Below, in pieces: positions 30,850 through 56,928 of a stretch of 64,000 bases of DNA (position 1 is the first letter of the stretch; each line of letters begins with the position of its first letter). The notes under the pieces are model-generated. The model ran no database searches. It worked only from the letters and a program-made list of their open reading frames with translations, and was not told where the DNA came from. A program made the position numbers and the translations under genes. This stretch comes from the human T2T-CHM13v2.0 reference genome, Homo sapiens. The DNA is taken from assembly GCF_009914755.1 (NCBI RefSeq), contig NC_060934.1; one strand, 5' to 3'.

Positions 30850-33800
30850 CTTCCTCCTCCATCATCCTCCCCTCTAGACTTCTCCTCCTCCCCCACCATC
30901 CTCCCCTCTAGACTTCTCCTCCTCCTCCCCATCCTCCCCTCTAGACTTTTCCTCCTCCTCCCCATCCTCCCCTCTAGACTTCTCCTCCTCCTCCCCATCC
31001 TCCCCTCTAGACTTCTCCTCCTCCTCCCCATCCTCCCCTCTAGACTACTCCTCCTCCTCCCCATCCTCCCCTCTAGACTTCTCCTCCTCCTCCCCATCCT
31101 CCCCTCTAGACTTCTCCTCCTCCTCCACCATCCTCCCCTCTAGACTTCTCCTCCTCCTCCACCATCCTCCCCTCTAGACTTCTCCTCCTCCTCCCCATCC
31201 TCCCCTCTAGATTTCTCCTCCTCCTCCACCATCCTCCCCTCTAGACTTCTCCTCCTCCTCCCCATCCTCCCCTCTAGACTTCTCCTCCTCCTTCACCATC
31301 CTCCCCTGTAGACTTCACCTCCTCCTCCCCATCTTCCCCTCTAGACTTCTCCTCCTCCTCCACCATCCTCCCCTCTAGACTTCTGCTCCTCCTAGCCATC
31401 TTCCCCTCTAGACTTCTCCTCCTCCTCCACCATCCTCCCCTCTAGACTTCTCCTCCTCCTCCACCATCCTCCCCTCTAGACTTCTCCTCCTCCTCCCCAT
31501 CCTCCCCTCTAGACTTCTCCTCCTCCTCCACCATCCTCCCCTCTAGACTTCTCCTCCTCCTCCACCATCCTCCCCTCTAGACTTCTCCTCCTCCTCCCCA
31601 TCCTCCCCTCTAGACTTCTCCTCCTCCTCCCCATCCTCCCCTCTAGACTTCTCCTCCTCCTCCCCATCCTCCCCTCTAGACTACTCCTCCTCCTCCACCA
31701 TCCTCCCCTCTAGATTTCTGCTCCTCCTCCCCATCCTCCCCTCTAGAATTCTCCTCCTCCTCCACCATCCTCCCCTCTAGACTTCTCCTCCTCCTCCACC
31801 ATCCTCCCCTCTAGACTTCTCCTCCTCCTCCCCATCCTCCCCTCTAGACTTCTCCTCCTCCTCCACCATCCTCCCCTCTAGACTTCTCCTCCTCCTCCAC
31901 CATCCTCCCCTCTAGACTTCTCCTCCTCCTCCCCATCTTCCCCTCTAGACTTCTCCTCCTCCTCCACCATCCTCCCCTCTAGACTTCTCCTCCTCCTCCC
32001 CATCCTCCCCTCTAGACTTCTCCTCCTCCTCCACCATCCTCCCCTCTAGACTTCTCCTCCTCCTCCACCATCCTCCCCTCTAGACTTCTCCTCCTCCTCC
32101 ACCATCCTCCCCTCTAGACTTCTCCTCCTCCTCCCCATCCTCCCCTCTAGACTTCTCCTCCTCCTCCCCATCCTCCCCTCTAGACTTCTCCTCCTCCTCC
32201 CCAACCTCCCCTCTAGACTTCTCCTCCTCCTCCACCATCCTCCCCTCTAGACTTCTCCTCCTCCTCCTCATCCTCCCCTCTAGACTTCTCCTCCTCCTCC
32301 ACCATCCTCCACTCTAGACTTCTCCTCCTCCTCCACCATCCTCCCCTCTAGACTTCTCCTCCTCCTCCCCATCCTCCCCTCTAGACTTCTCCTCCTCCTC
32401 CACCATCCTCCCCTCTAGACTTCTCCTCCTCCTCCACCATCCTCCCCTCTAGACTTCTCCTCCTCCTCCCCATCTTCCCCTCTAGACTTCTCCTCCTCCT
32501 CCACCATCCTCCCCTCTAGACTTCTCCGCCTCCTCCACCATCCTCCCCTCTAGACTTCTCCTCCTCCTCCCCATCCTCCCCTCTAGACTTCTCCTCCTCC
32601 TCCACCATCCTCCCCTCTAGACTTCTCCTCCTCCTCCACCATCCTCCCCTCTAGACTTCTCCTCCTCCTCCCCATCCTCCCCTCTAGACTTCTCCTCCTC
32701 CTCCACCATCCTCCCCTCTAGACTTCTCCTCCTCCTCCACCATCCTCCCCTCTAGACTTCTCCTCCTCCTCCACCATCCTCCCCTCTAGACTTCTCCTCC
32801 TCCTCCACCATCCTTTCCTCTAGACTTCTCCTCCTCCTCCCCATCCTCCCCTCTAGACTTCTCCTCCTCCTCCCCATCCTCCCCTCTAGACTTCTCCTCC
32901 TCCTCCACCATCCTCCCCTCTAGACTTCTCCTCCTCCTCCACCATCCTCCCCTCTACACTACTCCTCCTCCTCCACCATCCTCCCCTCTAGACTTCTCCT
33001 CCTCCTCCACCATCCTCCCCTCTAGACTTCTTCTCCTCCTCCCCATCCTCCCCTCTAGACTTCTCCTCCTCCTCCCCATCCTCCCCTCTAGACTTCTCCT
33101 CCTCCTCCCCATCCTCCCCTCTAGACTTCTCCTCCTCCTCCACCATCCTCCCCTCTAGACTTCTCCTCCTCCTCCACCATCCTCCCCTCTAGACTTCTCC
33201 TCCTCCTCCCCATCCTCCCCTCTAGACTTCTCCTCCTCCTCCCCATCCTCCCCTCTAGACTTCTCTTCCTCCTCCACCATCCTCCCCTCTAGACTTCTCC
33301 TCCTCCTCCACCATCCTCCCCTCTAGACTTCTCCTCCTCCTCCCCATCGTCCCCTCTAGACTTCTCCTCCTCCTCCACCATCCTCCCCTCTAGACTTCTC
33401 CTCCTCCTCCACCATCCTCCCCTCTAGACTTCTCCTCCTCCTCCACCATCCTCCCCTCTAGACTTCTCCTCCTCCTCCCCATCCTCCCCTCTAGACTTCT
33501 CCTCCTCCTCCACCATCCTCCCCTCTAGACTTCTCCTCCTCCTCCCCATCCTCCCCGCTAGACTTCTCCTCCTCCTCCACCATCCTCCCCTCTAGACTTC
33601 TCCTCCTCCTCCACCATCCTCCCCTCTAGACTTCTCCTCCTCCTCCCCATCCTCCCCTCTAGACTTCTCCTCCTCCTCCCCATCCTCCCCTCTAGACTTC
33701 TCTTCCTCCTCCACCATCCTCCCCTCTAGACTTCTCCTCCTCCTCCACCATCCTCCCCTCTAGACTTCTCCTCCTCCTCCCCATCGTCCCCTCTAGACTT

Positions 33801-36800
33801 CTCCTCCTCCTCCACCATCCTCCCCTCTAGACTTCTCCTCCTCCTCCACCATCCTCCCCTCTAGACTTCTCCTCCTCCTCCACAATCCTCCCCTCTAGAC
33901 TTCTCCTCCTCCTCCCCATCCTCCCCTCTAGACTTCTCCTCCTCCTCCACCATCCTCCCCTCTAGACTTCTCCTCCTCCTCCCCATCCTCCCCTCTAGAC
34001 TTCTCCTCCTCCTCCACCATCTTCCCCTCTAGACTTCTCCTCCTCCTCCACCATCCTCCCCTCTAGACTTCTCCTCCTCCTCCCCATCCTCCCCTCTAGA
34101 CTTCTCCTCCTCCTCCACCATCCTCCCCTCTAGACTTCTCCTCCTCCTCCACCATCCTCCGATCTAGGCTTCTCCTCCTCCTCCACCATCCTCCCCTCTA
34201 GACTTCTCCTCCTCCTCCACCATCCTCCCCTCTAGACTTCTCCTCCTCCTCACCATCCTCCCCTCTAGACTTCTCCTCCTCCTCTACCATCCTCCCGTCT
34301 AGACTTCTCCTCCTCCTCCACCATCCTCCCCTCTAGACTTCTCCTCCTCCTCCCCATCCTCCCCTCTAGACTTCTCCTCCTCCTCCCCATCCTCCCCTCT
34401 AGACTTCTCCTCCTCCTCACCATCCTCCCCTCTAGACTTCTCCTCCTCCTCCACCATCCTCCCCTCTAGACTTCTCCTCCTCCTCCACCATCCTCCCCTC
34501 TAGACTTCTCCTCCTCCTCCACCATCCTCCCCTCTAGACTTCTCCTCCTCCTCCACCATCCTCCCCTCTAGACTTCTCCTCCTCCTCCACCATCCTCCCC
34601 TCTAGACTTCTCCTCCTCCTCCCCATCCTCCCCTCTAGACTTCTCCTCCTCCTCCCCATCCTCCCCTCTAGACTTCTCCTCCTCCTCCCCATCCTCCCCT
34701 CTAGACTTCTCCTCCTCCTCCCCATCCTCCCCTCTAGACTTCTCCTCCTCCTCCACCATCCTCCCCTCTAGACTTCTCCTCCTCCTCCACCATCCTCCCC
34801 TCTAGACTTCCCCTCCTCCTCCACCATCCTCCCCTCTAGACTTCTCCTCCTCCTCCACCATTCTCCCCTCTAGACTTCTCCTCCTCCTCCCCATCCTCCC
34901 CTCTAGACTTCTCCTCCTCCTCCACCATCCTCCCCTCTAGACTTCTCCTCCTCCTCCCCATCCTCCCCTCTAGACTTCTCCTCCTCCTCCCCATCCTCCC
35001 CTCTAGACTTCTCCTCCTCCTCCCCATCCTCCCCTCTAGACTTCTCCTCCTCCTCCACCATCCTCCCCTCTAGACTTCTCCTCCTCCTCCACCATCCTCC
35101 CCTCTAGACTTCTCCTCCTCCTCCACCATCCTCCCCTCTAGACTTCTCCTCCTCCTCCACCATCCTCCCCTCTAGACTTCTCCTCCTCCTCCCCATCCTC
35201 CCCTCTAGACTTCTCCTCCTCCTCCACCATCCTCCCCTCTAGACTTCTCCTCCTCCTCCACCATCCTCCCCTCTAGACTTCTCCTCCTCCTCCACCATCC
35301 TCCCCTCTAGACTTCTCCTCCTCCTCCACCATCCTCCCCTCTAGACTTCCCCTCCTCCTCCACCATCCTCCCCTCTAGACTTCTCCTCCTCCTCCACCAT
35401 TCTCCCCTCTAGACTTCTCCTCCTCCTCCCCATCCTCCCCTCTAGACTTCTCCTCCTCCTCCACCATCCTCCCCTCTAGACTTCTCCTCCTCCTCCCCAT
35501 CCTCCCCTCTAGACTTCTCCTCCTCCTCCCCATCCTCCCCTCTAGACTTCTCCTCCTCCTCCCCATCCTCCCCTCTAGACTTCTCCTCCTCCTCCACCAT
35601 CCTCCCCTCTAGACTTCTCCTCCTCCTCCACCATCCTCCCCTCTAGACTTCTCCTCCTCCACCATCCTCCCCTCTAGACTTCTCCTCCTCCTCCCCATCC
35701 TCCCCTCTAGACTTCTCCTCCTCCTCCACCATCCTCCCCTCTAGACTTCTCCTTCTCCTCCGCCATCCTCCCCTCTAGACTTCTCCTCCTCCTCCCCATC
35801 CTCCCCTCTAGACTTCTCCTCCTCCTCCACCATCCTCCCCTCTAGACTTCTCCTCCTCCTCCCAATCCTCCCCTCTAGACTTCTCCTCCTCCTCCACCAT
35901 CCTCCCCTCTAGACTTCTCCTCCTCCTCCACCATCCTCCCCTCTAGACTTCTCCTCCTCCTCCCCATCTTCCCCTCTAGACTTCTCCTCCTCCTCCCCAT
36001 CCTCCCGTCTAGACTTCTCCTCCTCCTCCCCATCCACCCCTCTAGACTTCTCCTCCTCCTCCCCATCCTCCCCTCTAGACTTCTCCTCCTCCTCCCCATC
36101 CTCCCCTCTAGACTTCTCCTCCTCCTCCACATCCTCCCGTCTAGACTTCTCCTCCTCCTCCCCATCCTCCCCTCTAGACTTCTCCTCCTCCTCCACCATC
36201 TTCCCCTCTAGACTTCTCCTCCTCCTCCCCATCCTCCCCTCTAGACTTCTCCTCCTCCTCCACCATCTTCCCCTCTAGACTTCTCCTCCTCCTCCCCATC
36301 CTCCCCTCTAGACTTCTCCTCCTCCTCCCCATCCTCCCCTCTAGACTTCTCCTCCTCCTCCACCATCCTCCCCTCTAGACTTCTCCTCCTCCTCCACCAT
36401 CCTCCCCTCTAGACTTGTCCTCCTCCTCCACCATCCTCCCCTCTAGACTTCTCCTCCTCCTCCACCATCCTCCCCTCTAGACTTCTCCTCCTCCTCCACC
36501 ATCCTCCCCTCTAGGCTTCTCCTCCTCCTCCACCATCCTCCCCTCTAGGCTTCTCCTCCTCCTCCACCATCCTCCCCTCTAGACTTCTCCTCCTCCTCCA
36601 CCATCCTCCCCTCTAGACTTCTCCTCCTCCTCCACCATCCTCCCCTCTAGACTTCTCCTCCTCCTCCACCATCCTCCCCTCTAGACTTCTCCTCCTCCTC
36701 CACCATCCTCCCCTCTAGACTTCTCCTCCTCCTCCACCATCCTCCCCTCTAGACTTCTCCTCCTCCTCCACCATCCTCCCCTCTAGACTTCTCCTCCTCC

Positions 36801-39800
36801 TCCACCATCCTCCCCTCTAGACTTCTCCTCCTCCTCCACCATCCTCCCCTCTAGACTTCTCCTCCTCCTCCCCATCCTCCCCTCTAGACTTCTCCTCCTC
36901 CTCCCCATCCTCCCCTCTAGACTTCTCCTCCTCCTCCCCATCCTCCCCTCTAGACTTCTCCTCCTCCTCCACCATCCTCCCCTCTAGACTTCTCCTCCTC
37001 CTCCCCATCCTCCCCTCTAGACTTCTCCTCCTCCTCCCCATCCTCCCCTCTAGACTTCTCCTCCTCCTCCACCATCCTCCCCTCTAGACTTCTCCTCCTC
37101 CTCCCCATCCTCCCCTCTAGACTTCTCCTCCTCCTCCACCATCCTCCCCTCTAGACTTCTCCTCCTCCTCCCCATCCTCCCCTCTAGACTTCTCCTCCTC
37201 CTCCCCATCCTCCCCTCTAGACTTCTCCTCCTCCTCCCCATCCTCCCTTCTAGACTTCTCCTCCTCCTCCACCATCCTCCCCTCTAGACTTCTCCTCCTC
37301 CTCCACCATCCTCCCCTCTAGACTTCTCCTCCTCCTCCACCATCCTCCCCTCTAGACTTCTCCTCCTCCTCCACCATCCTCCCCTCTAGACTTCTCCTCC
37401 TCCTCCACCATCCTCCCCTCTAGGCTTCTCCTCCTCCTCCACCATCCTCCCCTCTAGCCTTCTCCTCCTCCTCCACCATCCTCCCCTCTAGACTTCTCCT
37501 CCTCCTCCACCATCCTCCCCTCTAGACTTCTCCTCCTCCTCCACCATCCTCCCCTCTAGACTTCTCCTCCTCCTCCACCATCCTCCCCTCTAGACTTCTC
37601 CTCCTCCTCCACCATCCTCCCCTCTCGACTTCTCCTCCTCCTCCACCATCCTCCCCTCTAGACTTCTCCTCCTCCTCCACCATCCTCCCCTCTAGACTTC
37701 TCCTCCTCCTCCACCATCCTCCCCTCTAGACTTCTCCTCCTCCTCCACCATCCTCCCCTCTAGACTTCTCCTCCTCCTCCCCATCCTCCCCTCTAGACTT
37801 CTCCTCCTCCTCCCCATCCTCCCCTCTAGACTTCTCCTCCTCCTCCCATCCTCCCCTCTAGACTTCTCCTCCTCCTCCACCATCCTCCCCTCTAGACTTC
37901 TCCTCCTCCTCCACCATCCTCCCCTCTAGACTTCTCCTCCTCCTCCCCATCCTCCCCTCTAGACTTCTCCTCCTCCTCCCCATCCTCCCCTCTAGACTTC
38001 TCCTCCTCCTCCCCATCCTCCCCTCTAGAGTTCTCCTCCTCCTCCCCATCCTCCCCTCTAGACTTCTCCTCCTCCTCCCCATCCTCCCCTCTAGACTTCT
38101 CCTCCTCCTCCCCATCCTCCCCTCTAGACTTCTCCTCCTCCTCCCCATCCTCCCCTCTAGACTTCTCCTCCTCCTCCACCATCCTCCCCTCTAGACTTCT
38201 CCTCCTCCTCTCCATCCTCCCCTCTAGACTTCTCGTCCTCCTCCCCATCCTCCCCTCTAGACTTCTCCTCCTCCTCCACCATCCTCACCTCTAGACTTCT
38301 CATCCTCCTCCACCATCCTCCCCTCTAGACTTCTCATCCTCCTCCCCATCCTCCCCTCTAGACTTCTCCTCCTCCTCCACCATCCTCCCCTCTAGACTTC
38401 TCCTCCTCCTCCACCATCCTCCCCTCTAGACTTCTCCTCCTCCTCACCATCCTCCCCTCTAGACTTCTCCTCCTCCTCCCCATCCTCCCCTCTAGACTTC
38501 TCCTCCTCCTCCCCATCCTCCCCTCTAGACTTCTCCTCCTCCTCCACCATCCTCCCCTCTAGACTTCTCCTCCTCCTCCCCATCCTCCCCTCTAGACTTC
38601 TCCTCCTCCTCCACCATCCTCCCCTCTAGACTTCTCCTCCTCCTCCACCATCTTCGCCTCTAGACTTCTCCTCCTCCTCCACCATCCTCCCCTCTAGACT
38701 TCTCCTCCTCCTCCCCATCCTCCCCTCTAGACTTCTCCTCCTCCTCCCCATCCTCCCCTCTAGACTTCTCCTCCTCCTCCACCATCCTCCCCTCTAGACT
38801 TCTCCTCCTCCTCCCCATCCTCCCCTCTAGACTTCTCCTCCTCCTCCACCATCCTCCCCTCTAGACTTCTCCTCCTCCTCCCCATCCTCCCCTCTAGACT
38901 TCTCCTCCTCCTCCCCATCCTCCCCTCTAGACTTCTCCTCCTCCTCCACCATCCTCCCCTCTAGACTTCTCCTCCTCCTCCCCATCCTCCCCTCTAGACT
39001 TCTCCTCCTCCTCACCATCCTCCCCTCTAGACTTCTCCTCCTCCTCCACCATCCTCCCCTCTAGACTTCTCCTCCTCCTCCCCATCCTCCCCTCTAGACT
39101 TCTCCTCCTCCTCCACCATCCTCCCCTCTAGACTTCTCCTCCTCCTCCACCATCCTCCCCTCTAGACTTCTCCACCTCCTCCCCATCCTCCCCTCTAGAC
39201 TTCTCCTCCTCCTCCCCATTCTCCCCTCTAGACTTCTCCTCCTCCTCCCCATCCTCCCCTCTAGACTTCTCCTCCTCCTCCACCATCCTCCCCTCTAGAC
39301 TTCTCCTCCTCCTCCCCATCCTCCCCTCTAGACTTCTCCTCCTCCTCCACCATCCTCCCCTCTAGACTTCTCCTCCTCCTCCACCATCCTCCCCTCTAGA
39401 CTTCTCCTCCTCCTCCCCATCCTCCCCTCTAGACTTCTCCTCCTCCTCCACCATCCTCCCCTCTAGACTTCTCCTCCTCGTCCCCATCCTCCCCTCTAGA
39501 CTTCTCCTCCTCCTCCCCATCCTCCCCTCTAGACTTCTCCTCCTCCTCCCCATCCTCCCCTCTAGACTTCTCCTCCTCCTCCACCATCCTCCCCTCTAGA
39601 CTTCTCCTCCTCCTCCCCATCCTCCCCTCTAGACTTCTCCTCCTCCTCCCCATCCTCCCCTCTAGACTTCTCCTCCTCCTCCACCATCCTCCCCTCTAGA
39701 CTTCACCTCCTCCTCCACCATCCTCCCCTCTAGACTTCTCCTCCTCCTCCCCATCCTCCCCTCTAGACTTCTCCTCCTCCTCCACCATCCTCCCCTCTAG

Positions 39801-42800
39801 ACTTCTCCTCCTCCTCCACCATCCTCCCCTCTAGACTTCTCCTCCTCCTCCCCATCCTCCCCTCTAGACTTCTCCTCCTCCTCACCATCCTCCCCTCTAG
39901 ACTTCTCCTCCTCCTCCACCATCCTCCCCTCTAGACTTCTCCTCCTCCTCCCCATCCTCCCCTCTAGACTTCTCCTCCTCCTCCACCATCCTCCCCTCTA
40001 GACTTCTCCTCCTCCTCCCCATCCTCCCCTCTAGACTTCTCCTCCTCCTCCCCATCCTCCCCTCTAGACTTCTCCTCCTCCTCCACCATCCTCCCCTATA
40101 GACTTCTCCTCCTCCTCCACCATCCTCCCCTCTAGACTTCTCCTCCTCCTTCCCATCCTCCCCTCTAGACTTCTCCTCCTCCTCACCATCCTCCCCTCTA
40201 GGCTTCTCCTCCTCCTCCACCATCCTCCCCTCTAGACTTCTCCTCCTCCTCCACCATCCTCCCCTCTAGACTTCTCCTCCTCCTCCCCATCCTCCCCTCT
40301 AGACTTCTCCTCCTCCTCCCCGTCCTCCCCTCTAGACTTCTCCTCCTCCTCCACCATCCTCCCCTCTAGACTTCTTCTCCTCCTCCACCATCCTCCCCTC
40401 TAGACTTCTCCTCCTCCTCCCCATCCTCCCCTCTAGACTTCTCCTCCTCCTCCACCATCCTCCCCTCTAGACTTCTCCTCCTCCTCCCCGTCCTCCCCTC
40501 TAGACTTCTCCTCCTCCTCCCCATCCTCCCCTCTAGACTTCTCCTCCTCCTCCCCATCCTCCCCTCTAGACTTCTCCTCCTCCTCCCCATCCTCCCCTCT
40601 AGACTTCTCCTCCTCCTCCACCATCCTCCCCTCTAGACTTCTCCTCCTCCTCCCCATCCTCCCCTGTAGACTTCTCCTCCTCCTCCCCATCCTCCCCTCT
40701 AGACTTCTCCTCCTCCTCCCCATCCTCCCCTCTAGACTTCTCCTCCTACTCCACCATCCTCCCCTCTAGACTTCTCCTCCTCCTCCCCATCCTCCCCTCT
40801 AGACTTCTCCTCCTCCTCCACCATCCTCCCCTCTAGACTTCTCCTCCTCCTCCACCATCCTCCCCTCTAGACTTCTCCTCCTCCTCCCCATCCTCCCCTC
40901 TAGACTTCTCCTCCTCCTCCACCATCCTCCCCTCTAGACTTCTCCTCCTCCTCCCCATCCTCCCCTCTAGACTTCTCCTCCTCCTCCACCATCCTCCCTT
41001 CTAGACTTCTCCTCCTCCTCCACCATCCTCCCCTCTAGACTTCTCCTCCTCCTCCACCATCCTCCCCTCTAGACTTCTCCTCCTCCTCCACCATCCTCCC
41101 CTCTAGACTTCTCTTCCTCCTCCACCATCCTCCCCCTCTAGACTTCTCCTCCTCCTCCCCATCCTCCCCTCTAGACTTCTCCTCCTCCTCCACCATCCTC
41201 CCCTCTAGACTTCTCCTCCTCCTCCACCATCTTCGCCTCTAGACTTCTCCTCCTCCTCCACCATCCTCCCCTCTAGACTTCTCCTCCTCCTCCACCATCC
41301 TCCCCTCTAGACTTCTCCTCCTCCTCCCCATCCTCCCCTCTAGACTTCTCCTCCTCCTCCACCATCCTCCCCTCTAGACTTCTCCTCCTCCTCCACCATC
41401 TTCGCCTCTAGACTTCTCCTCCTCCTCCACCATCCTCCCCTCTAGACTTCTCCTCCTCCTCCCCATCCTCCCCTCTAGACTTCTCCTCCTCCTCCCCATC
41501 CTCCCCTCTAGACTTCTCCTCCTCCTCCACCATCCTCCCCTCTAGACTTCTCCTCCTCCTCCCCCATCCTCCCCTCTAGACTTCTCCTCCTCCTCCACCA
41601 TCCTCCCCTCTAGACTTCTCCTCCTCCTCCCCATCCTCCCCTCTAGACTTCTCCTCCTCCTCCCCATCCTCCCCTCTAGACTTCTCCTCCTCCTCCACCA
41701 TCCTCCCCTCTAGACTTCTCCTCCTCCTCCCCATCCTCCCCTCTAGACTTCTCCTCCTCCTCCCCATCCTCCCCTCTAGACTTCTCCTCCTCCTCCACCA
41801 TCCTCCCCTCTAGACTTCTCCTCCTCCTCCCCATCCTCCCCTCTAGACTTCTCCTCCTCCTCCAACATCCTCCCCTCTAGACTTCTCCTCCTCCTCCACC
41901 ATCCTCCCCTCTAGACTTCTCCTCCTCCTCCCCATCCTCCCCTCTAGACTTCTCCTCCTCCTCCCCATCCTCCCCTCTAGACTTCTCCTCCTCCTCCACC
42001 ATCCTCCCCTCTAGACTTCTCCTCCTCCTCCACCATCCTCCCCTCTAGACTTCTCCTCCTCCTCCCCATCCTCCCCTCGAGACTTCTCCTCCTCCTCCAC
42101 CATCCTCCCCTCTAGACTTCTCCTCCTCCTCCCCATCCTCCCCTCTAGACTTCTCCTCCTCCCCATCCTCCCCTCTAGACTTCTCCTCCTCCTCCCCATC
42201 CTCCCCTCTAGACTTCTCCTCCTCCTCCCCATCCTCCCCTCTAGACTTCTCCTCCTCCTCCACCATCCTCCCCTCTAGACTTCTCCTCCTCCTCCCCATC
42301 CTCCCCTCCTAGACTTCTCCTCCTCCTCACCATCCTCCCCTCTAGACTTCTCCTCCTCCTCCACCATCCTCCCCTCTAGACTTCTCCTCCTCCTCCCCAT
42401 CCTCCCCTCTAGACTTCTCCTCCTCCTCCACCATCCTCCCCTCTAGACTTCTCCTCCTCCTCCACCATCCTCCCCTCTAGACTTCTCCACCTCCTCCCCA
42501 TCCTCCCCTCTAGACTTCTCCTCCTCCTCCCCATTCTCCCCTCTAGACTTCTCCTCCTCCTCCCCATCCTCCCCTCTAGACTTCTCCTCCTCCTCCACCA
42601 TCCTCCCCTCTAGACTTCTCCTCCTCCTCCCCATCCTCCCCTCTAGACTTCTCCTCCTCCTCCACCATCCTCCCCTCTAGACTTCTCCTCCTCCTCCACC
42701 ATCCTCCCCTCTAGACTTCTCCTCCTCCTCCCCATCCTCCCCTCTAGACTTCTCCTCCTCCTCCACCATCCTCCCCTCTAGACTTCTCCTCCTCGTCCCC

Positions 42801-45800: not shown

Positions 45801-48800
45801 CTCCCCTCTACACTTCTCCTCCTCCCTCCACCATCCTCCCCTCTACACTTCTCCTCCTCCTCCCCATCCTCCCCTCTAGACTTCTCCTCCTCCTCCACCA
45901 TCCTCCCCTCTAGACTTCTCCTCCTCCTCCCCATCCTCCCCTCTAGACTTCTCCTCCTCCTCACCATCCTCCCCTCTACACTTCTCCTCCTCCTCCACCA
46001 TCCTCCCCTCTAGACTTCTCCTCCTCCTCCCCATCCTCCCCTCTAGACTTCTCCTCCTCCTCCCCATCCTCCCCTCTAGACTTCTCCTCCTCCTCCACCA
46101 TCCTCCCCTCTAGACTTCTCCTCCTCCTCCACCATCCTCCCCCTCTAGACTTCTCCTCCTCCTCCCCATCCTCCCCTCTAGACTTCTCCTCCTCCTCCCC
46201 ATCCTCCCCTCTAGACTTCTCCTCCTCCTCCCCATCCTCCCCTCTAGACTTCTCCTCCTCCTCCCCATCCTCCCCTCTAGACTTCTCCTCCTCCTCCCCA
46301 TCCTCCCCTCTAGACTTCTCCTCCTCCTCCACCATCCTCCCCTCTAGACTTCTCCTCCTCCTCCCCATCCTCCCCTCTAGACTTCTCCTCCTCCTCCCCA
46401 TCCTCCCCTCTAGACTTCTCCTCCTCCTCCCCATCCTCCCATCTAGAATTCTCCTCCTCCTCCACCATCCTCCCCTCTAGACTTCTCCTCCTCCTCCACG
46501 ATCCTCCCCTCTAGACTTCTCCTCCTCCTCCACCATCCTCCCCTCTAGACTTCTCCTCCTCCTCCACCATCCTCCCATCTAGACTTCTCCTCCTGCTCCC
46601 CATCCTCCCCTCTAGACTTCTCCTCCTCCTCCACCATCCTCCCCTCTAGACTTCTCCTCCTCCTCCCCATCCTCCCCTCTAGACTTCTCCTCCTCCTCCA
46701 CCATCCTCCCCTCTAGACTTCTCCTCCTCCTCCACCATCTTCGCCTCTAGACTTCTCCTCCTCCTCCACCATCCTCCCCACTAGACTTCTCCTCCTCCTC
46801 CACCATCCTCCCCTCTAGACTTCTCCTCCTCCTCCCCATCCTCTCCTCTAGACTTCTCCTCCTCCTCCACCATCCTCCCCTCTAGACTTCTCCTCCTCCT
46901 CCACCATCCTCCCCTCTAGACTTCTCCTCCTCCTCCACCATCCTCCCCTCTAGACTTCTCCTCCTCCTCCCCATCCTCCCCTCTAGACTTCTCCTCCTCC
47001 TCCACCATCCTCCCCTCTAGACTTCTCCTCCTCCTCCCCATCCTCCCCTCTAGACTTCTCCTCCTCCTCCACCATCCTCCCCTCTAGACTTCTCCTCCTC
47101 CTCCACCATCCTCCCCTCTAGACTTCTCCTCCTCCTCCCCATCCTCCCCTCTAGACTTCTCCTCCTCCTCCACCATCCTCCCCTCTAGACTTCTCCTCCT
47201 CCTCCCCATCCTCCCCTCTAGACTTCTCCTCCTCCTCCACCATCCTCCCCTCTAGACTTCTCCTCCTCCTCCCCATCCTCCCCTCTAGACTTCTCCTCCT
47301 CCTCCACCATCCTCCCCTCTAGACTTCTCCTCCTCCTCCCCATCCTCCCCTCTAGACTTCTCCTCCTCCTCCACCATCCTCCCCTCTAGACTTCTCCTCC
47401 TCCTCCCCATCCTCCCCTCTAGACTTCTCCTCCTCCTCCACCATCCTCCCCTCTAGACTTCTCCTCCTCCTCCCCATCCTCCACTCTAGACTTCTCCTCC
47501 TCCTCCACCATCCTCCCCTCTAGACTTCTCCTCCTCCTCCCCATCCTCCCCTCTAGACTTCTCCTCCTCCTCCCCATCCTCCCCTCTAGACTTCCCCTCC
47601 TCCTCCACCATCCTCCCCTCTAGACTTCTCCTCCTCCTCCCCATCCTCCCCTCTAGACTTCTCCTCCTCCTCCACCATCCTCCCCTCTAGACTTCTCCTC
47701 CTCCTCCCCATCCTCCCCTCTAGACTTCTCCTCCTCCTCCACCATCCTCCCCTCTACACTTCTCCTCCTCCTCCACCATTCTCCCCTCTAGACTTCTCCT
47801 CCTCCTCCCCATCCTCCCCTCTAGACTTCTCCTCCTCCTCCACCATCCTCCCCTCTAGACTTCTCCTCCTCCTCCACCATCTTTGCCTCTAGACTTCTCC
47901 TCCTCCTCCACCATCCTCCCCTCTAGAGTTCTCCTCCTCCTCCCCATCCTCCCCTCTAGACTTCTCCTCCTCCTCCCCATCCTCCCCTCTAGACTTCTCC
48001 TCCTCCTCCACCATCCTCCCCTCTAGACTTCTCCTCCTCCTCCCCATCCTCCCCTCTAGACTTCTCCTCCTCCTCCACCATCCTCCCCTCTAGACTTCTC
48101 CTCCTCCTCCCCATCCTCCCCTCTAGACTTCTCCTCCTCCTCCACCATCCTCCCCTCTAGACTTCTCCTCCTCCTCCCCATCCTCCCCTCTAGACTTCTC
48201 CTCCTCCTCCCCATCCTCCCCTCTAGACTTCTCCTCCTCCTCCCCATCCTCCCCTCTAGACTTCTCCTCCTCCTCCCCATCCTCCCCTCTAGACTTCTCC
48301 TCCTCCTCCACCATCCTCCCCTCTGGACTTCTCCTCCTTCTCCCCATCCTCCCCTCTAGACTTCTCCTCCTCCTCCACCATCCTCCCCTCTAGACTTCTC
48401 CTCCTCCTCCCCATCCTCCCCTCTAGACTTCTCCTCCTCCTCCCCATCCTCCCCTCTAGACTTCTCCTCCTCCTCCACCATCCTCCCCTCTAGACTTCTC
48501 CTCCTCCTCCACCATCCTCCCCTCTAGACTTCTCCTCCTCCTTCCCATCCTCCCCTCTAGACTTCTCCTCCTCCTCACCATCCTCCCCTCTAGGCTTCTC
48601 CTCCTCCTCCACCATCCTCCCCTCTAGACTTCTCCTCCTCCTCCACCATCCTCCCCTCTAGACTTCTCCTCCTCCTCCCCATCCTCCCCTCTAGACTTCT
48701 CCTCCTCCTCCCCATCCTCCCCTCTAGACTTCTCCTCCTCCTCCACCATCCTCCCCTCTAGACTTCTCCTCCTCCTCCACCATCCTCCCCTCTAGACTTC

Positions 48801-51800
48801 TCCTCCTCCTCCACCATCCTCCCCTCTAGACTTCTCCTCCTCCTCCACCATCCTGCCCTCTAGACTTCTCCTCCTCCTCCACCATCCTCCCCTCTAGACT
48901 TCTCCTCCTCCTCCCCATCCTCCCCTCTAGACTTCTCCTCCTCCTCCCCATCCTCCCCTCTAGACTTCTCCTCCTCCTCCCCATCCTCCCCTCTAGACTT
49001 CTCCTCCTCCTCCCCATCCTCCCCTCTAGACTTCTCCTCCTCCTCCCCATCCTCCCCTCTAGACTTCTCCTCCTCCTCCCCATCCTCCCCTCTAGACTTC
49101 TCCTCCTCCTCCACCATCCTCCCCTCTAGACTTCTCCTCCTCCTTCCCATCCTCCCCTCTAGACTTCTCCTCCTCCTCACCATCCTCCCCTCTAGGCTTC
49201 TCCTCCTCCTCCACCATCCTCCCCTCTAGACTTCTCCTCCTCCTCCACCATCCTCCCCTCTAGACTTCTCCTCCTCCTCCCCATCCTCCCCTCTAGACTT
49301 CTCCTCCTCCTCCCCATCCTCCCCTCTAGACTTCTCCTCCTCCTCCACCATCCTCCCCTCTAGACTTCTCCTCCTCCTCCACCATCCTCCCCTCTAGACT
49401 TCTCCTCCTCCTCCACCATCCTCCCCTCTAGACTTCTCCTCCTCCTCCCCATCCTCCCCTCTAGACTTCTCCTCCTCCTCCCCATCCTCCCCTCTAGACT
49501 TCTCCTCCTCCTCCCCATCCTCCCCTCTAGACTTCTCCTCCTCCTCCCCATCCTCCCCTCTAGACTTCTCCTCCTCCTCCCCATCCTCCCCTCTAGACTT
49601 CTCCTCCTCCTCCACCATCCTCCCCTCTAGACTTCTCCTCCTCCTCCCCATCCTCCCCTCTAGACTTCTCCTCCTCCTCCCCATCCTCCCCTCTAGACTT
49701 CTCCTCCTCCTCCCCATCCTCCCATCTAGAATTCTCCTCCTCCTCCACCATCCTCCCCTCTAGACTTCTCCTCCTCCTCCACCATCCTCCCCTCTAGACT
49801 TCTCCTCCTCCTCCACCATCCTCCCCTCTAGACTTCTCCTCCTCCTCCACCATCCTCCCCTCTAGACTTCTCCTCCTCCTCCACCATCCTCCCCTCTAGA
49901 CTTCTCCTCCTCCTCCCCATCCTCCCCTCTAGACTTCTCCTCCTCCTCCACCATCCTCCCCTCTAGACTTCTCCTCCTCCTCCCCATCCTCCCCTCTAGA
50001 CTTCTCCTCCTCCTCCCCATCCTCCCCTCTAGACTTCTCCTCCTCCTCCCCATCCTCCCATCTAGAATTCTCCTCCTCCTCCACCATCCTCCCCTCTAGA
50101 CTTCTCCTCCTCCTCCACGATCCTCCCCTCTAGACTTCTCCTCCTCCTCCACCATCCTCCCCTCTAGACTTCTCCTCCTCCTCCACCATCCTCCCATCTA
50201 GACTTCTCCTCCTGCTCCCCATCCTCCCCTCTAGACTTCTCCTCCTCCTCCACCATCCTCCCCTCTAGACTTCTCCTCCTCCTCCCCATCCTCCCCTCTA
50301 GACTTCTCCTCCTCCTCCACCATCCTCCCCTCTAGACTTCTCCTCCTCCTCCACCATCTTCGCCTATAGACTTCTCCTCCTCCTCCACCATCCTCCCCAC
50401 TAGACTTCTCCTCCTCCTCCACCATCCTCCCCTCTAGACTTCTCCTCCTCCTCCCCATCCTCTCCTCTAGACTTCTCCTCCTCCTCCACCATCCTCCCCT
50501 CTAGACTTCTCCTCCTCCTCCACCATCCTCCCCTCTAGACTTCTCCTCCTCCTCCACCATCCTCCCCTCTAGACTTCTCCTCCTCCTCCCCATCCTCCCC
50601 TCTAGACTTCTCCTCCTCCTCCACCATCCTCCCCTCTAGACTTCTCCTCCTCCTCCCCATCCTCCCCTCTAGACTTCTCCTCCTCCTCCACCATCCTCCC
50701 CTCTAGACTTCTCCTCCTCCTCCACCATCCTCCCCTCTAGACTTCTCCTCCTCCTCCCCATCCTCCCCTCTAGACTTCTCCTCCTCCTCCACCATCCTCC
50801 CCTCTAGACTTCTCCTCCTCCTCCCCATCCTCCCCTCTAGACTTCTCCTCCTCCTCCACCATCCTCCCCTCTAGACTTCTCCTCCTCCTCCCCATCCTCC
50901 CCTCTAGACTTCTCCTCCTCCTCCACCATCCTCCCCTCTAGACTTCTCCTCCTCCTCCCCATCCTCCCCTCTAGACTTCTCCTCCTCCTCCACCATCCTC
51001 CCCTCTAGACTTCTCCTCCTCCTCCCCATCCTCCCCTCTAGACTTCTCCTCCTCCTCCACCATCCTCCCCTCTAGACTTCTCCTCCTCCTCCCCATCCTC
51101 CACTCTAGACTTCTCCTCCTCCTCCACCATCCTCCCCTCTAGACTTCTCCTCCTCCTCCCCATCCTCCCCTCTAGACTTCTCCTCCTCCTCCCCATCCTC
51201 CCCTCTAGACTTCCCCTCCTCCTCCACCATCCTCCCCTCTAGACTTCTCCTCCTCCTCCCCATCCTCCCCTCTAGACTTCTCCTCCTCCTCCACCATCCT
51301 CCCCTCTAGACTTCTCCTCCTCCTCCCCATCCTCCCCTCTAGACTTCTCCTCCTCCTCCACCATCCTCCCCTCTACACTTCTCCTCCTCCTCCACCATTC
51401 TCCCCTCTAGACTTCTCCTCCTCCTCCCCATCCTCCCCTCTAGACTTCTCCTCCTCCTCCACCATCCTCCCCTCTAGACTTCTCCTCCTCCTCCACCATC
51501 TTTGCCTCTAGACTTCTCCTCCTCCTCCACCATCCTCCCCTCTAGACTTCTCCTCCTCCTCCCCATCCTCCCCTCTAGACTTCTCCTCCTCCTCCCCATC
51601 CTCCCCTCTAGACTTCTCCTCCTCCTCCACCATCCTCCCCTCTAGACTTCTCCTCCTCCTCCCCATCCTCCCCTCTAGACTTCTCCTCCTCCTCCACCAT
51701 CCTCCCCTCTAGACTTCTCCTCCTCCTCCCCATCCTCCCCTCTAGACTTCTCCTCCTCCTCCACCATCCTCCCCTCTAGACTTCTCCTCCTCCTCCCCAT

Positions 51801-54800
51801 CCTCCCCTCTAGACTTCTCCTCCTCCTCCCCATCCTCCCCTCTAGACTTCTCCTCCTCCTCCCCATCCTCCCCTCTAGACTTCTCCTCCTCCTCCCCATC
51901 CTCCCCTCTAGACTTCTCCTCCTCCTCCACCATCCTCCCCTCTGGACTTCTCCTCCTTCTCCCCATCCTCCCCTCTAGACTTCTCCTCCTCCTCCACCAT
52001 CCTCCCCTCTAGACTTCTCCTCCTCCTCCCCATCCTCCCCTCTAGACTTCTCCTCCTCCTCCCCATCCTCCCCTCTAGACTTCTCCTCCTCCTCCACCAT
52101 CCTCCCCTCTAGACTTCTCCTCCTCCTCCACCATCCTCCCCTCTAGACTTCTCCTCCTCCTTCCCATCCTCCCCTCTAGACTTCTCCTCCTCCTCACCAT
52201 CCTCCCCTCTAGGCTTCTCCTCCTCCTCCACCATCCTCCCCTCTAGACTTCTCCTCCTCCTCCACCATCCTCCCCTCTAGACTTCTCCTCCTCCTCCCCA
52301 TCCTCCCCTCTAGACTTCTCCTCCTCCTCCCCATCCTCCCCTCTAGGCTTCTCCTCCTCCTCCACCATCCTCCCCTCTAGACTTCTCCTCCTCCTCCACC
52401 ATCCTCCCCTCTAGACTTCTCCTCCTCCTCCACCATCCTCCCCTCTAGACTTCTCCTCCTCCTCCACCATCCTGCCCTCTAGACTTCTCCTCCTCCTCCA
52501 CCATCCTCCCCTCTAGACTTCTCCTCCTCCTCCCCATCCTCCCCTCTAGACTTCTCCTCCTCCTCCCCATCCTCCCCTCTAGACTTCTCCTCCTCCTCCC
52601 CATCCTCCCCTCTAGACTTCTCCTCCTCCTCCCCATCCTCCCCTCTAGACTTCTCCTCCTCCTCCCCATCCTCCCCTCTAGACTTCTCCTCCTCCTCCCC
52701 ATCCTCCCCTCTAGACTTCTCCTCCTCCTCCACCATCCTCCCCTCTAGACTTCTCCTCCTCCTTCCCATCCTCCCCTCTAGACTTCTCCTCCTCCTCACC
52801 ATCCTCCCCTCTAGGCTTCTCCTCCTCCTCCACCATCCTCCCCTCTAGACTTCTCCTCCTCCTCCACCATCCTCCCCTCTAGACTTCTCCTCCTCCTCCC
52901 CATCCTCCCCTCTAGACTTCTCCTCCTCCTCCCCATCCTCCCCTCTAGACTTCTCCTCCTCCTCCACCATCCTCCCCTCTAGACTTCTCCTCCTCCTCCA
53001 CCATCCTCCCCTCTAGACTTCTCCTCCTCCTCCACCATCCTCCCCTCTAGACTTCTCCTCCTCCTCCCCATCCTCCCCTCTAGACTTCTCCTCCTCCTCC
53101 ACCATCCTCCCCTCTAGACTTCTCCTCCTCCTCCACCATCCTCCCCTCTAGACTTCTCCTCCTCCTCCCCATCCTCCCCTCTAGACTTCTCCTCCTCCTC
53201 CACCATCCTCCCCTCTAGACTTCTCCTCCTCCTCCACCATCCTCCCCTCTAGACTTCTCCTCCTCCTCCCCATCCTCCCCTCTAGACTTCTCCTCCTCCT
53301 CCACCATCCTCCCCTCTAGACTTCTCCTCCTCCTCCCCATCCTCCCCTCTAGACTTCTCCTCCTCCTCCCCATCCTCCCCTCTAGACTTCTCCTCCTCCT
53401 CCACCATCCTCCCCTATAGACTTCTCCTCCTCCTCCACCATCCTCCCCTCTAGACTTCTCCTCCTCCTTCCCATCCTCCCCTCTAGACTTCTCCTCCTCC
53501 TCACCATCCTCCCCTCTAGGCTTCTCCTCCTCCTCCACCATCCTCCCCTCTAGACTTCTCCTCCTCCTCCACCATCCTCCCCTCTAGACTTCTCCTCCTC
53601 CTCCCCATCCTCCCCTCTAGACTTCTCCTCCTCCTCCCCATCCTCCCCTCTAGACTTCTCCTCCTCCTCCACCATCCTCCCCTCTAGACTTCTCCTCCTC
53701 CTCCACCATCCTCCCCTCTAGACTTCTCCTCCTCCTCCACCATCCTCCCCTCTAGACTTCTCCTCCTCCTCCCCATCCTCCCCTCTAGACTTCTCCTCCT
53801 CCTCCCCATCCTCCCCTCTAGACTTCTCCTCCTCCTCCCCATCCTCCCCTCTAGACTTCTCCTCCTCCTCCCCATCCTCCCCTCTAGACTTCTCCTCCTC
53901 CTCCCCATCCTCCCCTCTAGACTTCTCCTCCTCCTCCACCATCCTCCCCTCTAGACTTCTCCTCCTCCTCCCCATCCTCCCCTCTAGACTTCTCCTCCTC
54001 CTCCCCATCCTCCCCTCTAGACTTCTCCTCCTCCTCCCCATCCTCCCATCTAGAATTCTCCTCCTCCTCCACCATCCTCTCCTCTAGACTTCTCCTCCTC
54101 CTCCACCATCCTCCCCTCTAGACTTCTCCTCCTCCTCCACCATCCTCCCCTCTAGACTTCTCCTCCTCCTCCACCATCCTCCCCTCTAGACTTCTCCTCC
54201 TCCTCCCCATCCTCCCCTCTAGACTTCTCCTCCTCCTCCACCATCCTCCCCTCTAGACTTCTCCTCCTCCTCCCCATCCTCCCCTCTAGACTTCTCCTCC
54301 TCCTCCACCATCCTCCCCTCTAGACTTCTCCTCCTCCTCCCCATCCTCCCCTCTAGACTTCTCCTCCTCCTCCACCATCCTCCCCTCTAGACTTCTCCTC
54401 CTCCTCCACCATCCTCCCCTCTAGACTTCTCCTCCTCCTCCACCATCCTCCCCTCTAGACTTCTCCTCCTCCTCCCCATCCTCCCCTCTAGACTTCTCCT
54501 CCTCCTCCACCATCCTCCCCTCTAGACTTCTCCTCCTCCTCCCCATCCTCCCCTCTAGACTTCTCCTCCTCCTCCACCATCCTCCCCTCTAGACTTCTCC
54601 TCCTCCTCCACCATCTTCGCCTCTAGACTTCTCCTCCTCCTCCACCATCCTCCCCTCTAGACTTCTCCTCCTCCTCCACCATCCTCCCCTCTAGACTTCT
54701 CCTCCTCCTCCCCATCCTCCCCTCTAGACTTCTCCTCCTCCTCCACCATCCTCCCCTCTAGACTTCTCCTCCTCCTCCCCATCCTCCCCTCTAGACTTCT

Positions 54801-56928
54801 CCTCCTCCTCCACCATCCTCCCCTCTAGACTTCTCCTCCTCCTCCCCATCCTCCCCTCTAGACTTCTCCTCCTCCTCCACCATCCTCCCCTCTAGACTTC
54901 TCCTCCTCCTCCCCATCCTCCCCTCTAGACTTCTCCTCCTCCTCCCCATCCTCCCCTCTAGACTTCTCCTCCTCCTCCCCATCCTCCCATCTAGAATTCT
55001 CCTCCTCCTCCACCATCCTCTCCTCTAGACTTCTCCTCCTCCTCCACCATCCTCCCCTCTAGACTTCTCCTCCTCCTCCACCATCCTCCCCTCTAGACTT
55101 CTCCTCCTCCTCCACCATCCTCCCCTCTAGACTTCTCCTCCTCCTCCCCATCCTCCCCTCTAGACTTCTCCTCCTCCTCCACCATCCTCCCCTCTAGACT
55201 TCTCCTCCTCCTCCCCATCCTCCCCTCTAGACTTCTCCTCCTCCTCCCCATCCTCCCCTCTAGACTTCTCCTCCTCCTCCCCATCCTCCCATCTAGAATT
55301 CTCCTCCTCCTCCACCATCCTCCCCTCTAGACTTCTCCTCCTCCTCCACCATCCTCCCCTCTAGACTTCTCCTCCTCCTCCCCATCCTCCCCTCTAGACT
55401 TCTCCTCCTCCTCCCCATCCTCCCCTCTAGACTTCTCCTCCTCCTCCACCATCCTCCCCTCTAGACTTCTCCTCCTCCTCCACCATCCTCCCCTCTAGAC
55501 TTCTCCTCCTCCTCCACCATCCTCCCCTCTAGACTTCTCCTCCTCCTCCCCATCCTCCCCTCTAGACTTCTCCTCCTCCTCCCCATCCTCCCCTCTAGAC
55601 TTCTCCTCCTCCTCCCCATCCTCCCCTCTAGACTTCTCCTCCTCCTCCCCATCCTCCCCTCTAGACTTCTCCTCCTCCTCCCCATCCTCCCCTCTAGACT
55701 TCTCCTCCTCCTCCACCATCCTCCCCTCTAGACTTCTCCTCCTCCTCCCCATCCTCCCCTCTAGACTTCTCCTCCTCCTCCCCATCCTCCCCTCTAGACT
55801 TCTCCTCCTCCTCCCCATCCTCCCATCTAGAATTCTCCTCCTCCTCCACCATCCTCTCCTCTAGACTTCTCCTCCTCCTCCACCATCCTCCCCTCTAGAC
55901 TTCTCCTCCTCCTCCACCATCCTCCCCTCTAGACTTCTCCTCCTCCTCCACCATCCTCCCCTCTAGACTTCTCCTCCTCCTCCCCATCCTCCCCTCTAGA
56001 CTTCTCCTCCTCCTCCACCATCCTCCCCTCTAGACTTCTCCTCCTCCTCCCCATCCTCCCCTCTAGACTTCTCCTCCTCCTCCACCATCCTCCCCTCTAG
56101 ACTTCTCCTCCTCCTCCCCATCCTCCCCTCTAGACTTCTCCTCCTCCTCCACCATCCTCCCCTCTAGACTTCTCCTCCTCCTCCACCATCCTCCCCTCTA
56201 GACTTCTCCTCCTCCTCCACCATCCTCCCCTCTAGACTTCTCCTCCTCCTCCCCATCCTCCCCTCTAGACTTCTCCTCCTCCTCCACCATCCTCCCCTCT
56301 AGACTTCTCCTCCTCCTCCCCATCCTCCCCTCTAGACTTCTCCTCCTCCTCCACCATCCTCCCCTCTAGACTTCTCCTCCTCCTCCACCATCTTCGCCTC
56401 TAGACTTCTCCTCCTCCTCCACCATCCTCCCCTCTAGACTTCTCCTCCTCCTCCACCATCCTCCCCTCTAGACTTCTCCTCCTCCTCCCCATCCTCCCCT
56501 CTAGACTTCTCCTCCTCCTCCACCATCCTCCCCTCTAGACTTCTCCTCCTCCTCCCCATCCTCCCCTCTAGACTTCTCCTCCTCCTCCACCATCCTCCCC
56601 TCTAGACTTCTCCTCCTCCTCCCCATCCTCCCCTCTAGACTTCTCCTCCTCCTCCACCATCCTCCCCTCTAGACTTCTCCTCCTCCTCCCCATCCTCCCC
56701 TCTAGACTTCTCCTCCTCCTCCCCATCCTCCCCTCTAGACTTCTCCTCCTCCTCCCCATCCTCCCCTCTAGACTTCTCCTCCTCCTCCCCATCCTCCCCT
56801 CTAGACTTCTCCTCCTCCCCATCCTCCCCTCTAGACTTCTCCTCCTCCTCCCCATCCTCCCCTCTAGACTTCTCCTCCTCCTCCACCATCCTCCCCTCTA
56901 GACTTCTCCTCCTCCTCCCCATCCTCCC
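30850..56928. repeat. Giant minisatellite/VNTR of 33/34-bp units, ~26.1 kb, about 780 copies
   Basis: Uninterrupted head-to-tail CTCTAGACTTCTCCTCCTCCTCC(A)CCATCCTCCC; copy number estimated as length/33.5. Confidence 0.99.

What the first reader, a model, noticed from the sequence alone, without database searches (positions are those of the whole stretch)
30850..56928. Exceptionally long (~26 kb) homogeneous minisatellite in otherwise ordinary euchromatic DNA
Seen: about 780 near-identical 33/34-bp units with no TE insertion and sharp edges that merge into short pyrimidine-rich unique flanks. Established: most human minisatellite alleles are well below ~20 kb, and arrays like this are often collapsed or gapped in short-read and older assemblies. 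Inference: this is a recent, probably still length-polymorphic expansion from a small C/T-rich seed, and it may be poorly described.
Basis: partly seen in the sequence, partly recalled or inferred. Interest (0 to 1): 0.8.

Follow-up and report, generated by a model that had tools for sequence, protein, structure and literature searches.

The report
Long two-variant minisatellite on chromosome 10q
This is a real, uninterrupted 26-kb run of about 777 copies of a 33/34-base C/T-rich unit found nowhere else in this human genome; it grew by copying blocks of its own units, shows no sign of a function, and is long for its kind but not unique.

Summary
TRF finds one array at 30852-56928 (26,077 bp, period 34, 777.6 copies, 96% matches). 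It is built of two interspersed units, A (34 bp, 313 exact copies) and B (33 bp, 288 exact), with 91 rarer variants. No spacing falls outside 30-36 bp, so nothing is inserted.

The unit is confined to this locus in T2T-CHM13: all 746 genome-wide matches of a 23-mer lie in the array. Both flanks are single-copy. The right flank keeps a decayed relic unit.

56% of the array lies in internal duplicates of at least 500 bp and at least 98.8% identity, the largest 3,217 bp at 99.91%. These are concentrated in the 3' 10.6 kb. The array is non-coding, has no Rfam match, no hairpin potential, no canonical G4 and no PRDM9 13-mer enrichment.

Best reading: a neutral, locus-specific minisatellite that grew by unequal exchange or template switching.

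"Exceptional" is overstated. A published catalogue lists a 26.8-kb and a 22-kb minisatellite in CHM13, and at least 9 loci with alleles over about 20 kb. Length polymorphism, ape status and the GRCh38 length could not be tested. No paper describing this locus was found.

The parts
30852..56928 (+). Whole minisatellite array: 26,077 bp, about 777 head-to-tail units. The + strand is 86% pyrimidine (C 56%, T 30%, A 11%, G 3%) with 27 CpG.
   Evidence: TRF; segmentation; composition
30852..46139 (+). Older, more heterogeneous 5' part. About 24-34% of units differ from both main types in most 50-unit bins. It holds only small internal duplicates: lag 437 bp at 33076-34116, lag 909 bp at 36269-37847, lag 3315 bp at 38994-39610 / 42309-42925.
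46140..56765 (+). Young 3' part built from nested block duplications. 46265-49481 matches 49884-53100 (3214/3217). 49093-49882 matches 53417-54206 (789/790). 53438-54988 matches 55215-56765 (1546/1551). 46140-46733 matches 53747-54340 and 55524-56117 (590/594 each).
56931..56975 (+). Decayed relic of about 1.3 units in the right flank: either the seed or an old terminal unit.
   Evidence: Local alignment score 27 against a shuffle maximum of 21, 0 of 200 shuffles as good
30250..30851 (.). Left flank: single copy in the genome, no resemblance to the unit, sharp junction.
56976..57530 (.). Right flank beyond the relic: single copy in the genome.

Best explanation
This is a locus-specific, non-coding minisatellite (VNTR-type array) in a gene-free stretch of distal human 10q. 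It most likely arose by slippage between short C/T-rich direct repeats, of which a decayed relic survives at the 3' edge. It then grew, and keeps turning over, by out-of-register exchange or template switching between its own units. These events duplicate blocks of 13 to about 108 units (0.4-3.6 kb) at a time. Two unit types differing by one base of length (34-bp A, 33-bp B) were shuffled by these events into a near-random mosaic. The latest rounds built the 3' 10.6 kb. I judge it a neutral by-product of replication and recombination with no function of its own, and probably length-polymorphic among people. Shown: the anatomy, uniqueness, block duplications, lack of coding or RNA-family signal, and lack of hairpin potential. 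Inferred: the mechanism of growth, neutrality and polymorphism.
For: One array of 777.6 copies at 96% identity. Two unit types, 313 and 288 exact copies, in near-random order (AA 199, AB 196, BA 190, BB 142). Period 67 scores no better than 34, so there is no strict higher-order repeat. Rare variant units recur at fixed lags of 13, 16, 18, 53, 95, 99 and 108 units. Long ungapped near-identical blocks exist: 3,217 bp at 99.91%, 1,551 bp at 99.68% and 617/617 bp. Blocks of at least 500 bp cover 14,516 of 26,077 bp. The 3' end is the most homogeneous: 14 of 126 units there are non-consensus against 161 of 650 elsewhere (Fisher p = 4.6e-4, units not independent). The unit 23-mer with up to 1 mismatch occurs 746 times in the genome and all 746 are in this array. 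Both flanks are single copy. There is a relic unit in the right flank. The longest stop-to-stop frame inside the array is 177 aa. There is no Rfam match in the window. Single-strand DNA folds are at 0 and -0.8 kcal/mol, no better than shuffles. No gene is annotated within 100 kb (hub annotation supplied with the finding).
Against: Only one haplotype was available, so polymorphism and turnover are inferred from internal structure alone. Neutrality is an argument from absence: no transcription, chromatin or binding data could be consulted. Two RefSeq enhancers lie 24-30 kb upstream in the window. The purine strand carries one (GGA)4-type run per unit (708 in the array, 0 in the rest of the window). 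It is predicted to form a two-layer quadruplex per unit when ViennaRNA's G4 option is on (-89.8 kcal/mol against a shuffle mean of -47.9, 2 of 100 shuffles as low). A structural or protein-binding role is therefore not excluded. Distinct substitutions show more transversions (56) than transitions (38), which a simple neutral point-mutation picture does not predict.
Confidence: 0.78

Rival explanations
1. Assembly over-expansion: some or all of the near-identical 3' blocks are false duplications, and the true CHM13 allele is several kb shorter.
For: The 3' 10.6 kb consists of blocks 99.3-99.9% identical at lags of 1.8-4.3 kb. Repeats of this kind can be mis-resolved. PMC12855859 (passages) reports six loci where genotyped sizes agree with GRCh38 but not with T2T-CHM13.
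Against: The duplicated blocks are not perfectly identical (3, 5 and 1 differences) and have distinct junctions, so reads can tell them apart. The lags are far shorter than the long reads I recall were used for this assembly. This locus is not among the chr10 rows of Supplementary Data 2 of PMC12855859, which lists such size errors. Even with all these blocks removed the array would still be about 19-20 kb.
Confidence: 0.05
2. A functional platform: about 777 evenly spaced copies of one motif act as a binding array or structural element. Options are a pyrimidine-rich transcript that soaks up PTB-type proteins, a (GGA)n/G-quadruplex or triplex-prone tract that binds purine-motif factors or stalls replication, or a chromatin boundary.
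For: Extreme strand asymmetry (86% pyrimidine on the + strand). 783 and 771 matches of two PTB-type pyrimidine hexamers on the + strand against 172 and 167 in the other 38 kb (motifs recalled). 708 (TCC)4 runs in the array against 0 outside. A two-layer G4 is predicted in every unit. Pure pyrimidine runs of 11, 16 and 18 nt occur in every unit.
Against: There is no annotated gene or transcript within 100 kb, no Rfam hit and no canonical G3 quadruplex motif (1 in 26 kb). No expression or occupancy data were available. Motif richness follows automatically from repeating any C/T-rich unit. The free interspersion and turnover of variants argues against constraint on length or order.
Confidence: 0.08
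3. Part of a dispersed repeat family: a satellite, or the internal tandem region of a transposable element such as an SVA-type VNTR.
For: A 401-bp piece of the array finds 92 matches elsewhere in the genome.
Against: Those matches are only 67-76% identical. In 7 of the 8 loci fetched (L007 left out because it overlaps L006) they are generic (TCC)n-like repeats of period 3, 9, 15, 20 or 39/104 and 0.5-1.9 kb. The unit 23-mer occurs nowhere outside this array. Both flanks are single copy.
Confidence: 0.02

Closest known systems
Classical human GC-rich minisatellites with interspersed variant repeats (MS32, CEB1, MSY1, D1S80 type)
   Same: Tandem units of tens of bp, several variant units interspersed along the array, strand asymmetry, kb-scale arrays, a distal chromosome position, and internal structure shaped by duplication of runs of units. 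The abstract of PMC2599865 (listing) describes intra-allelic processes maintaining diversity in length and structure at MSY1.
   Different: At 26 kb and 777 units it is at the top of the range. It lacks the canonical G3 quadruplex motif on which, according to the abstract of PMC3486850, CEB1 instability depends. It is not enriched for the PRDM9 13-mer. Hypervariability is untested.
Large long-read-catalogued VNTRs in distal chromosome arms (e.g. the DOCK1 34-bp VNTR on 10q; chr5:99.70 Mb 75-bp array; chr15 TUBGCP5 36-bp array)
   Same: Similar unit size and multi-kb to more than 20-kb alleles. DOCK1 lies 1.5 Mb proximal on the same arm and is 1.3 kb in GRCh38 against 11.0 kb in CHM13. The chr5 array is 26.8 kb and the chr15 array 22.0 kb in CHM13.
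   Different: The unit sequence is unrelated. This locus is not in that paper's list of loci with alleles at least 10 kb above both references. It is also not in the 467 human-specific VNTRs of Course et al. 2021.
Polypurine/polypyrimidine (TCC)n/(GGA)n simple repeats
   Same: Each unit contains a (TCC)4 run (708 in the array). The best genome-wide matches are such repeats.
   Different: Here the triplet run is only about a third of a complex 33/34-bp unit, which also carries a palindromic TCTAGA and a CCA(C)CAT segment. The period is 33/34, not 3.

Membership tests
Minisatellite / VNTR | Head-to-tail tandem array of units of roughly 10-100 bp | tested here: met
   TRF period 34, 777.6 copies, 96% matches; spacings 30-36 bp only
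Minisatellite / VNTR | Single locus, not a dispersed or multi-chromosome satellite | tested here: met
   746 of 746 genome-wide matches of the unit 23-mer are in this array; flanks are single copy
Minisatellite / VNTR | Copy number varies between individuals (the 'variable' in VNTR) | not testable with these tools
   Only the CHM13 haplotype is held, with no GRCh38, HPRC or ape sequence. Indirect hints only: recent internal duplications, and a net +36,099 bp in CHM13 over GRCh38 across the 4.1 Mb between two bracketing VNTRs (my arithmetic), which cannot be assigned to this locus.
Minisatellite / VNTR | Interspersed variant repeat units (MVR-type internal map) | tested here: met
   Two major and 91 minor unit types in a near-random A/B order
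G-quadruplex-driven hypervariable minisatellites (CEB1/CEB25 type) | Four runs of at least 3 G within a unit or between neighbours with short loops | tested here: not met
   1 canonical G3 motif in 26 kb, with loops up to 12 nt allowed. Two-G motifs are present in every unit (780).
PRDM9-motif / hotspot-associated minisatellites | Enrichment of the degenerate 13-mer hotspot motif (recalled) | tested here: not met
   2 matches in the array (0.08 per kb), the same density as in the rest of the window (3 matches, 0.08 per kb)
Satellite DNA with higher-order repeats | A regular multi-unit period that is more homogeneous than the basic unit | tested here: not met
   Period 67 scores the same as 34. 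A/B transitions are near random. Block duplications have many different lags.
TE-borne tandem region (e.g. SVA VNTR) | Flanks belong to a dispersed element | tested here: not met
   Each 600-bp flank finds only itself in the genome. Very old elements could escape this search.
Coding tandem repeat (mucin-like exon) | A long open frame through the array | tested here: not met
   The longest stop-to-stop frame inside the array is 177 aa in 26 kb. TAG occurs on both strands of every unit, and mixing 33 and 34 bp shifts the frame.
H-DNA / triplex-forming mirror repeats | Long pure purine/pyrimidine tract with mirror symmetry | tested here: inconclusive
   Pure pyrimidine runs are only 11, 16 or 18 nt per unit. 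Mirror symmetry was not scored formally.

The most novel reading that the evidence does not exclude
The array is a hominid- or human-lineage giant minisatellite that is more than junk. Its roughly 777 phased (GGA)4/(TCC)4 modules would form non-B DNA (two-layer or tetrad-heptad-type quadruplexes, i-motifs), or give a pyrimidine-rich transcript. That would make the locus a length-dependent replication barrier, a recombination-prone site, or a protein sponge whose strength varies between people.
Probability: 0.06. Interest if true: 0.6.

Novelty: new member of a known kind. Interest (0 to 1): 0.2.

Why it matters
As it stands this is an ordinary kind of element at the long end of its range. Its practical value is as a clean, TE-free, locus-unique 26-kb array whose two-letter unit map records its own growth. 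Comparing that map across assembled human and ape haplotypes would give a direct view of how very long minisatellites expand, including block size, polarity and rate. It is also a locus where short-read and mask-based annotation will mislead: of the masked stretches listed by the hub, those inside the array cover only 2,082 bp, all of them runs of B units. A marked length polymorphism would make it a candidate for association tests in a 10q26 gene desert. Nothing here suggests a phenotype.

Tried and rejected
1. Other copies of the unit in the genome: none. The 92 weaker matches are generic (TCC)n-like repeats.

2. TE origin of the flanks: rejected at this sensitivity.

3. Coding potential: rejected.

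4. Known RNA family: none in the whole window.

5. Hairpin-driven expansion: rejected. Both strands fold no better than shuffles.

6. PRDM9 13-mer: not enriched. I discard this: the pattern is unreliable and almost any C/T-rich repeat would match it.

7. Canonical G4: absent. The G4-enabled fold uses an energy model that I consider rough for two-layer DNA quadruplexes, so it is only a lead.

8. Literature on this locus:
- Unit 14-mers on either strand: 0 papers.
- Coordinate-style phrases: 0 papers, though the tool may not match across a colon.
- VNTR + chr10 + T2T-CHM13 + human-specific, minisatellite + 10q26, VNTR + MKI67 and 10q26.2 + VNTR: nothing on this locus in the listings.
- Fragile-site review PMC9714581 (passages): nothing on this locus.
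- Course et al. 2021 Table S1: I saw the first 10 of about 27 chr10 rows. They are ordered by coordinate and jump from 126.95 to 131.18 Mb.
- PMC12855859 Supplementary Data 2 and 4: locus absent.
- Held supplements of PMC12633414 and of the T2T genome paper PMC9186530: no number beginning 12936-12938.
- Sulovari et al. 2019 is not held, so its list of human-specific expansions was not seen.

Full report
**Observation**

TRF on the whole window finds one dominant array at 30852-56928: period 34, 777.6 copies, 96% matches, 2% indels, score 48009. Period 67 gives the same score. Every other tandem repeat in the window scores 170 or less.

I split the array on a 10-nt anchor with up to 2 mismatches. 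This gives 777 anchors and 776 units. Their lengths are 34 (403), 33 (349), 35 (9), 36 (5), 31 (4), 32 (3) and 30 (3). No interval is longer than 36 bp, so nothing is inserted anywhere in the 26,077 bp.

**Anatomy**

There are two main units:
- A: CTCTAGACTTCTCCTCCTCCTCCACCATCCTCCC, 34 bp, 313 exact copies.
- B: CTCTAGACTTCTCCTCCTCCTCCCCATCCTCCC, 33 bp, 288 exact copies.

Together they account for 601 of 776 units. There are 93 distinct unit sequences, 52 of them seen once. A and B are interspersed almost at random (AA 199, AB 196, BA 190, BB 142). The apparent 67-bp period is therefore not a true higher-order repeat.

The + strand is 86% pyrimidine (C 56.2%, T 29.9%, A 10.7%, G 3.2%), with only 27 CpG in 26 kb.

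**Growth record**

Rare variant units recur at fixed lags of 13, 16, 18, 53, 95, 99 and 108 units. An ungapped scan of all lags from 60 to 20,000 bp finds these blocks:
- 3,217 bp at 99.91% (46265-49481 against 49884-53100)
- 1,551 bp at 99.68% (53438-54988 against 55215-56765)
- 790 bp at 99.87%
- 617 of 617 bp (38994-39610 against 42309-42925)
- ten further blocks of 538-769 bp at 98.8-99.6%

Their union covers 14,516 bp, or 55.7% of the array, and almost all of 46140-56765.

The 3' end is also the most uniform. 14 of 126 units there differ from both main types, against 161 of 650 elsewhere (Fisher p = 4.6e-4; units are not independent).

At 0.5e-9 substitutions per bp per year (a recalled rate), the largest block pair would be about 0.9 Myr old (95% interval 0.2-2.7). 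If the array mutates faster than average, this is an upper bound.

By contrast, the array as a whole carries 94 distinct substitution events in 74 variant unit types, plus 17 length variants. That is 3.6e-3 events per bp, equal to about 7 Myr of exposure at that rate if the whole array had existed throughout. So either the array's origin is not recent or its mutation rate is raised. Only the 3' 40% is demonstrably young.

**Uniqueness and edges**

A 23-nt piece of the unit, with up to 1 mismatch, occurs 746 times in the 3.1-Gb genome, all on one strand. All 746 lie in this array.

A 401-bp piece finds 92 other places at only 67-76% identity. I examined 7 of the 8 loci fetched, leaving out L007 because it overlaps L006. 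They are generic (TCC)n-like repeats of period 3, 9, 15, 20 or 39/104 and 0.5-1.9 kb.

The 600 bp on each side are single copy. The left junction is abrupt. The right flank holds a decayed copy of about 1.3 units at 56931-56975 (score 27, shuffle maximum 21, 0 of 200). This fits either the original seed or an old terminal unit.

**What it is not**

- Not coding. The longest stop-to-stop frame inside the array is 177 aa. TAG sits in the palindromic TCTAGA on both strands of each unit.
- Not a known RNA family. There are 0 Rfam matches in the window.
- Not hairpin-forming. Minimum free energies are 0 and -0.8 kcal/mol for 201 nt of either strand, and 200 and 190 of 200 shuffles fold at least as well.
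- Not a canonical G-quadruplex minisatellite. There is 1 G3-type motif in 26 kb.
- Not enriched for the PRDM9 13-mer. Density is 0.08 per kb both inside and outside the array.

What remains is a (TCC)4/(GGA)4 run in nearly every unit (708 in the array, 0 elsewhere in the window). A two-layer quadruplex is predicted per unit on the purine strand when the G4 option is on. That energy model is rough, so I treat this as a lead only.

**Mechanism**

The most economical reading is a neutral minisatellite that expands and contracts by out-of-register exchange between sister chromatids or homologues, or by replication template switching. Each event copies a block of units. The nested near-identical blocks with many different lags are the direct trace of such events. 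The mechanism itself is inferred from established knowledge of minisatellites. For example, the abstract of PMC2599865 describes intra-allelic processes at MSY1 (listing only).

**Comparison with what is known**

The array fits the definition of a minisatellite on every feature I could test (see Membership tests). Variability between people could not be tested.

Its length is high but not singular. Supplementary Data 4 of PMC12855859 (the part read) lists loci with alleles at least 10 kb longer than both references. Among rows with 23-75-bp motifs, CHM13 lengths are:
- 26.8 kb (chr5:99.70 Mb)
- 22.0 kb (chr15, TUBGCP5)
- 15.4 kb (chr11)
- 13.6 kb (PTPRN2)
- 13.5 kb (MUC19)
- 13.4 kb (chr20)
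- 12.3 kb (RPH3AL)
- 11.0 kb (DOCK1)
- 10.7 kb (chr18)

So at least 9 such loci reach more than about 20 kb in healthy people.

VNTRs with long GC-rich units are strongly enriched within 5 Mb of chromosome ends (PMC7608644, abstract and passages). Several multi-kb VNTRs lie distal and proximal to it.

**Is the locus described?**

I found no paper that describes it.

It is absent from the 467 human-specific VNTRs of Course et al. 2021. In one search I saw the first 10 of about 27 chr10 rows; they are ordered by coordinate and have nothing between 126.95 and 131.18 Mb.

The Sulovari 2019 list could not be read. bioRxiv supplements are closed. Bulk TRF-based catalogues almost certainly contain the interval (inference).

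Paired coordinates place the array at roughly GRCh38 chr10:128.43-128.48 Mb. They also show a net +36,099 bp in CHM13 across the 4.1 Mb that brackets it. This leaves room for a much shorter GRCh38 allele but does not show one.

**Verdict**

It is a new member of a known kind, long but within the known range, with an informative internal growth record and no evidence of function. Polymorphism, lineage specificity and read-level validation remain open and need data that these tools do not hold.

Noticed in passing
30852-56928: Among 94 distinct substitutions that separate variant units from the two main types, transversions (56) outnumber transitions (38). C>A is 20, C>G 17, C>T 29, T>A 9 and T>C 4. 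This is unusual for human germline change. It may reflect CpG-free C-rich sequence, repair-linked synthesis, or double counting of shared changes.
   Followed up: partly
30910-31134, 34604-34762, 37928-38185, 46147-46338, 48896-49120, 49430-49621, 52515-52739, 53754-53945, 55531-55722, 56671-56892: The stretches of the array that the hub lists as soft-masked are exactly the runs of 4-7 consecutive 33-bp B units plus the next A unit, 2,082 bp in all. The hub lists only the longest masked stretches, so smaller ones may exist. Most of the array appears unmasked in NCBI's file.
   Followed up: yes
outside the window: CHM13 chr10:127830902-127841887: A 34-bp-unit VNTR in DOCK1, 1.5 Mb proximal, is 1.27 kb in GRCh38 and 10.99 kb in CHM13. 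It has alleles at least 10 kb longer still (PMC12855859 Supplementary Data 4). Course 2021 Table S1 gives 2.7-9.9 kb in long-read genomes. Its unit is unrelated in sequence.
   Followed up: no
CHM13 chr10:127.84-131.97 Mb: Between two VNTRs with paired coordinates, CHM13 is a net 36,099 bp longer than GRCh38 (my arithmetic). The excess cannot be assigned to any one locus.
   Followed up: no
5054-5490: A complex TG-rich repeat cluster with overlapping periods of 2, 12, 15, 19, 51 and 62. It lies just upstream of the RefSeq enhancer at 6485-6985.
   Followed up: no
63778-63995: An imperfect ACACAGAC-type repeat with periods of 6, 10, 28 and 32 at 61-68% matches, running to the window end.
   Followed up: no
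30872-56902: Almost every unit carries a palindromic TCTAGA. There are 744 in the array and only 4 in the other 38 kb. XbaI would therefore cut the array into 33/34-bp pieces.
   Followed up: yes
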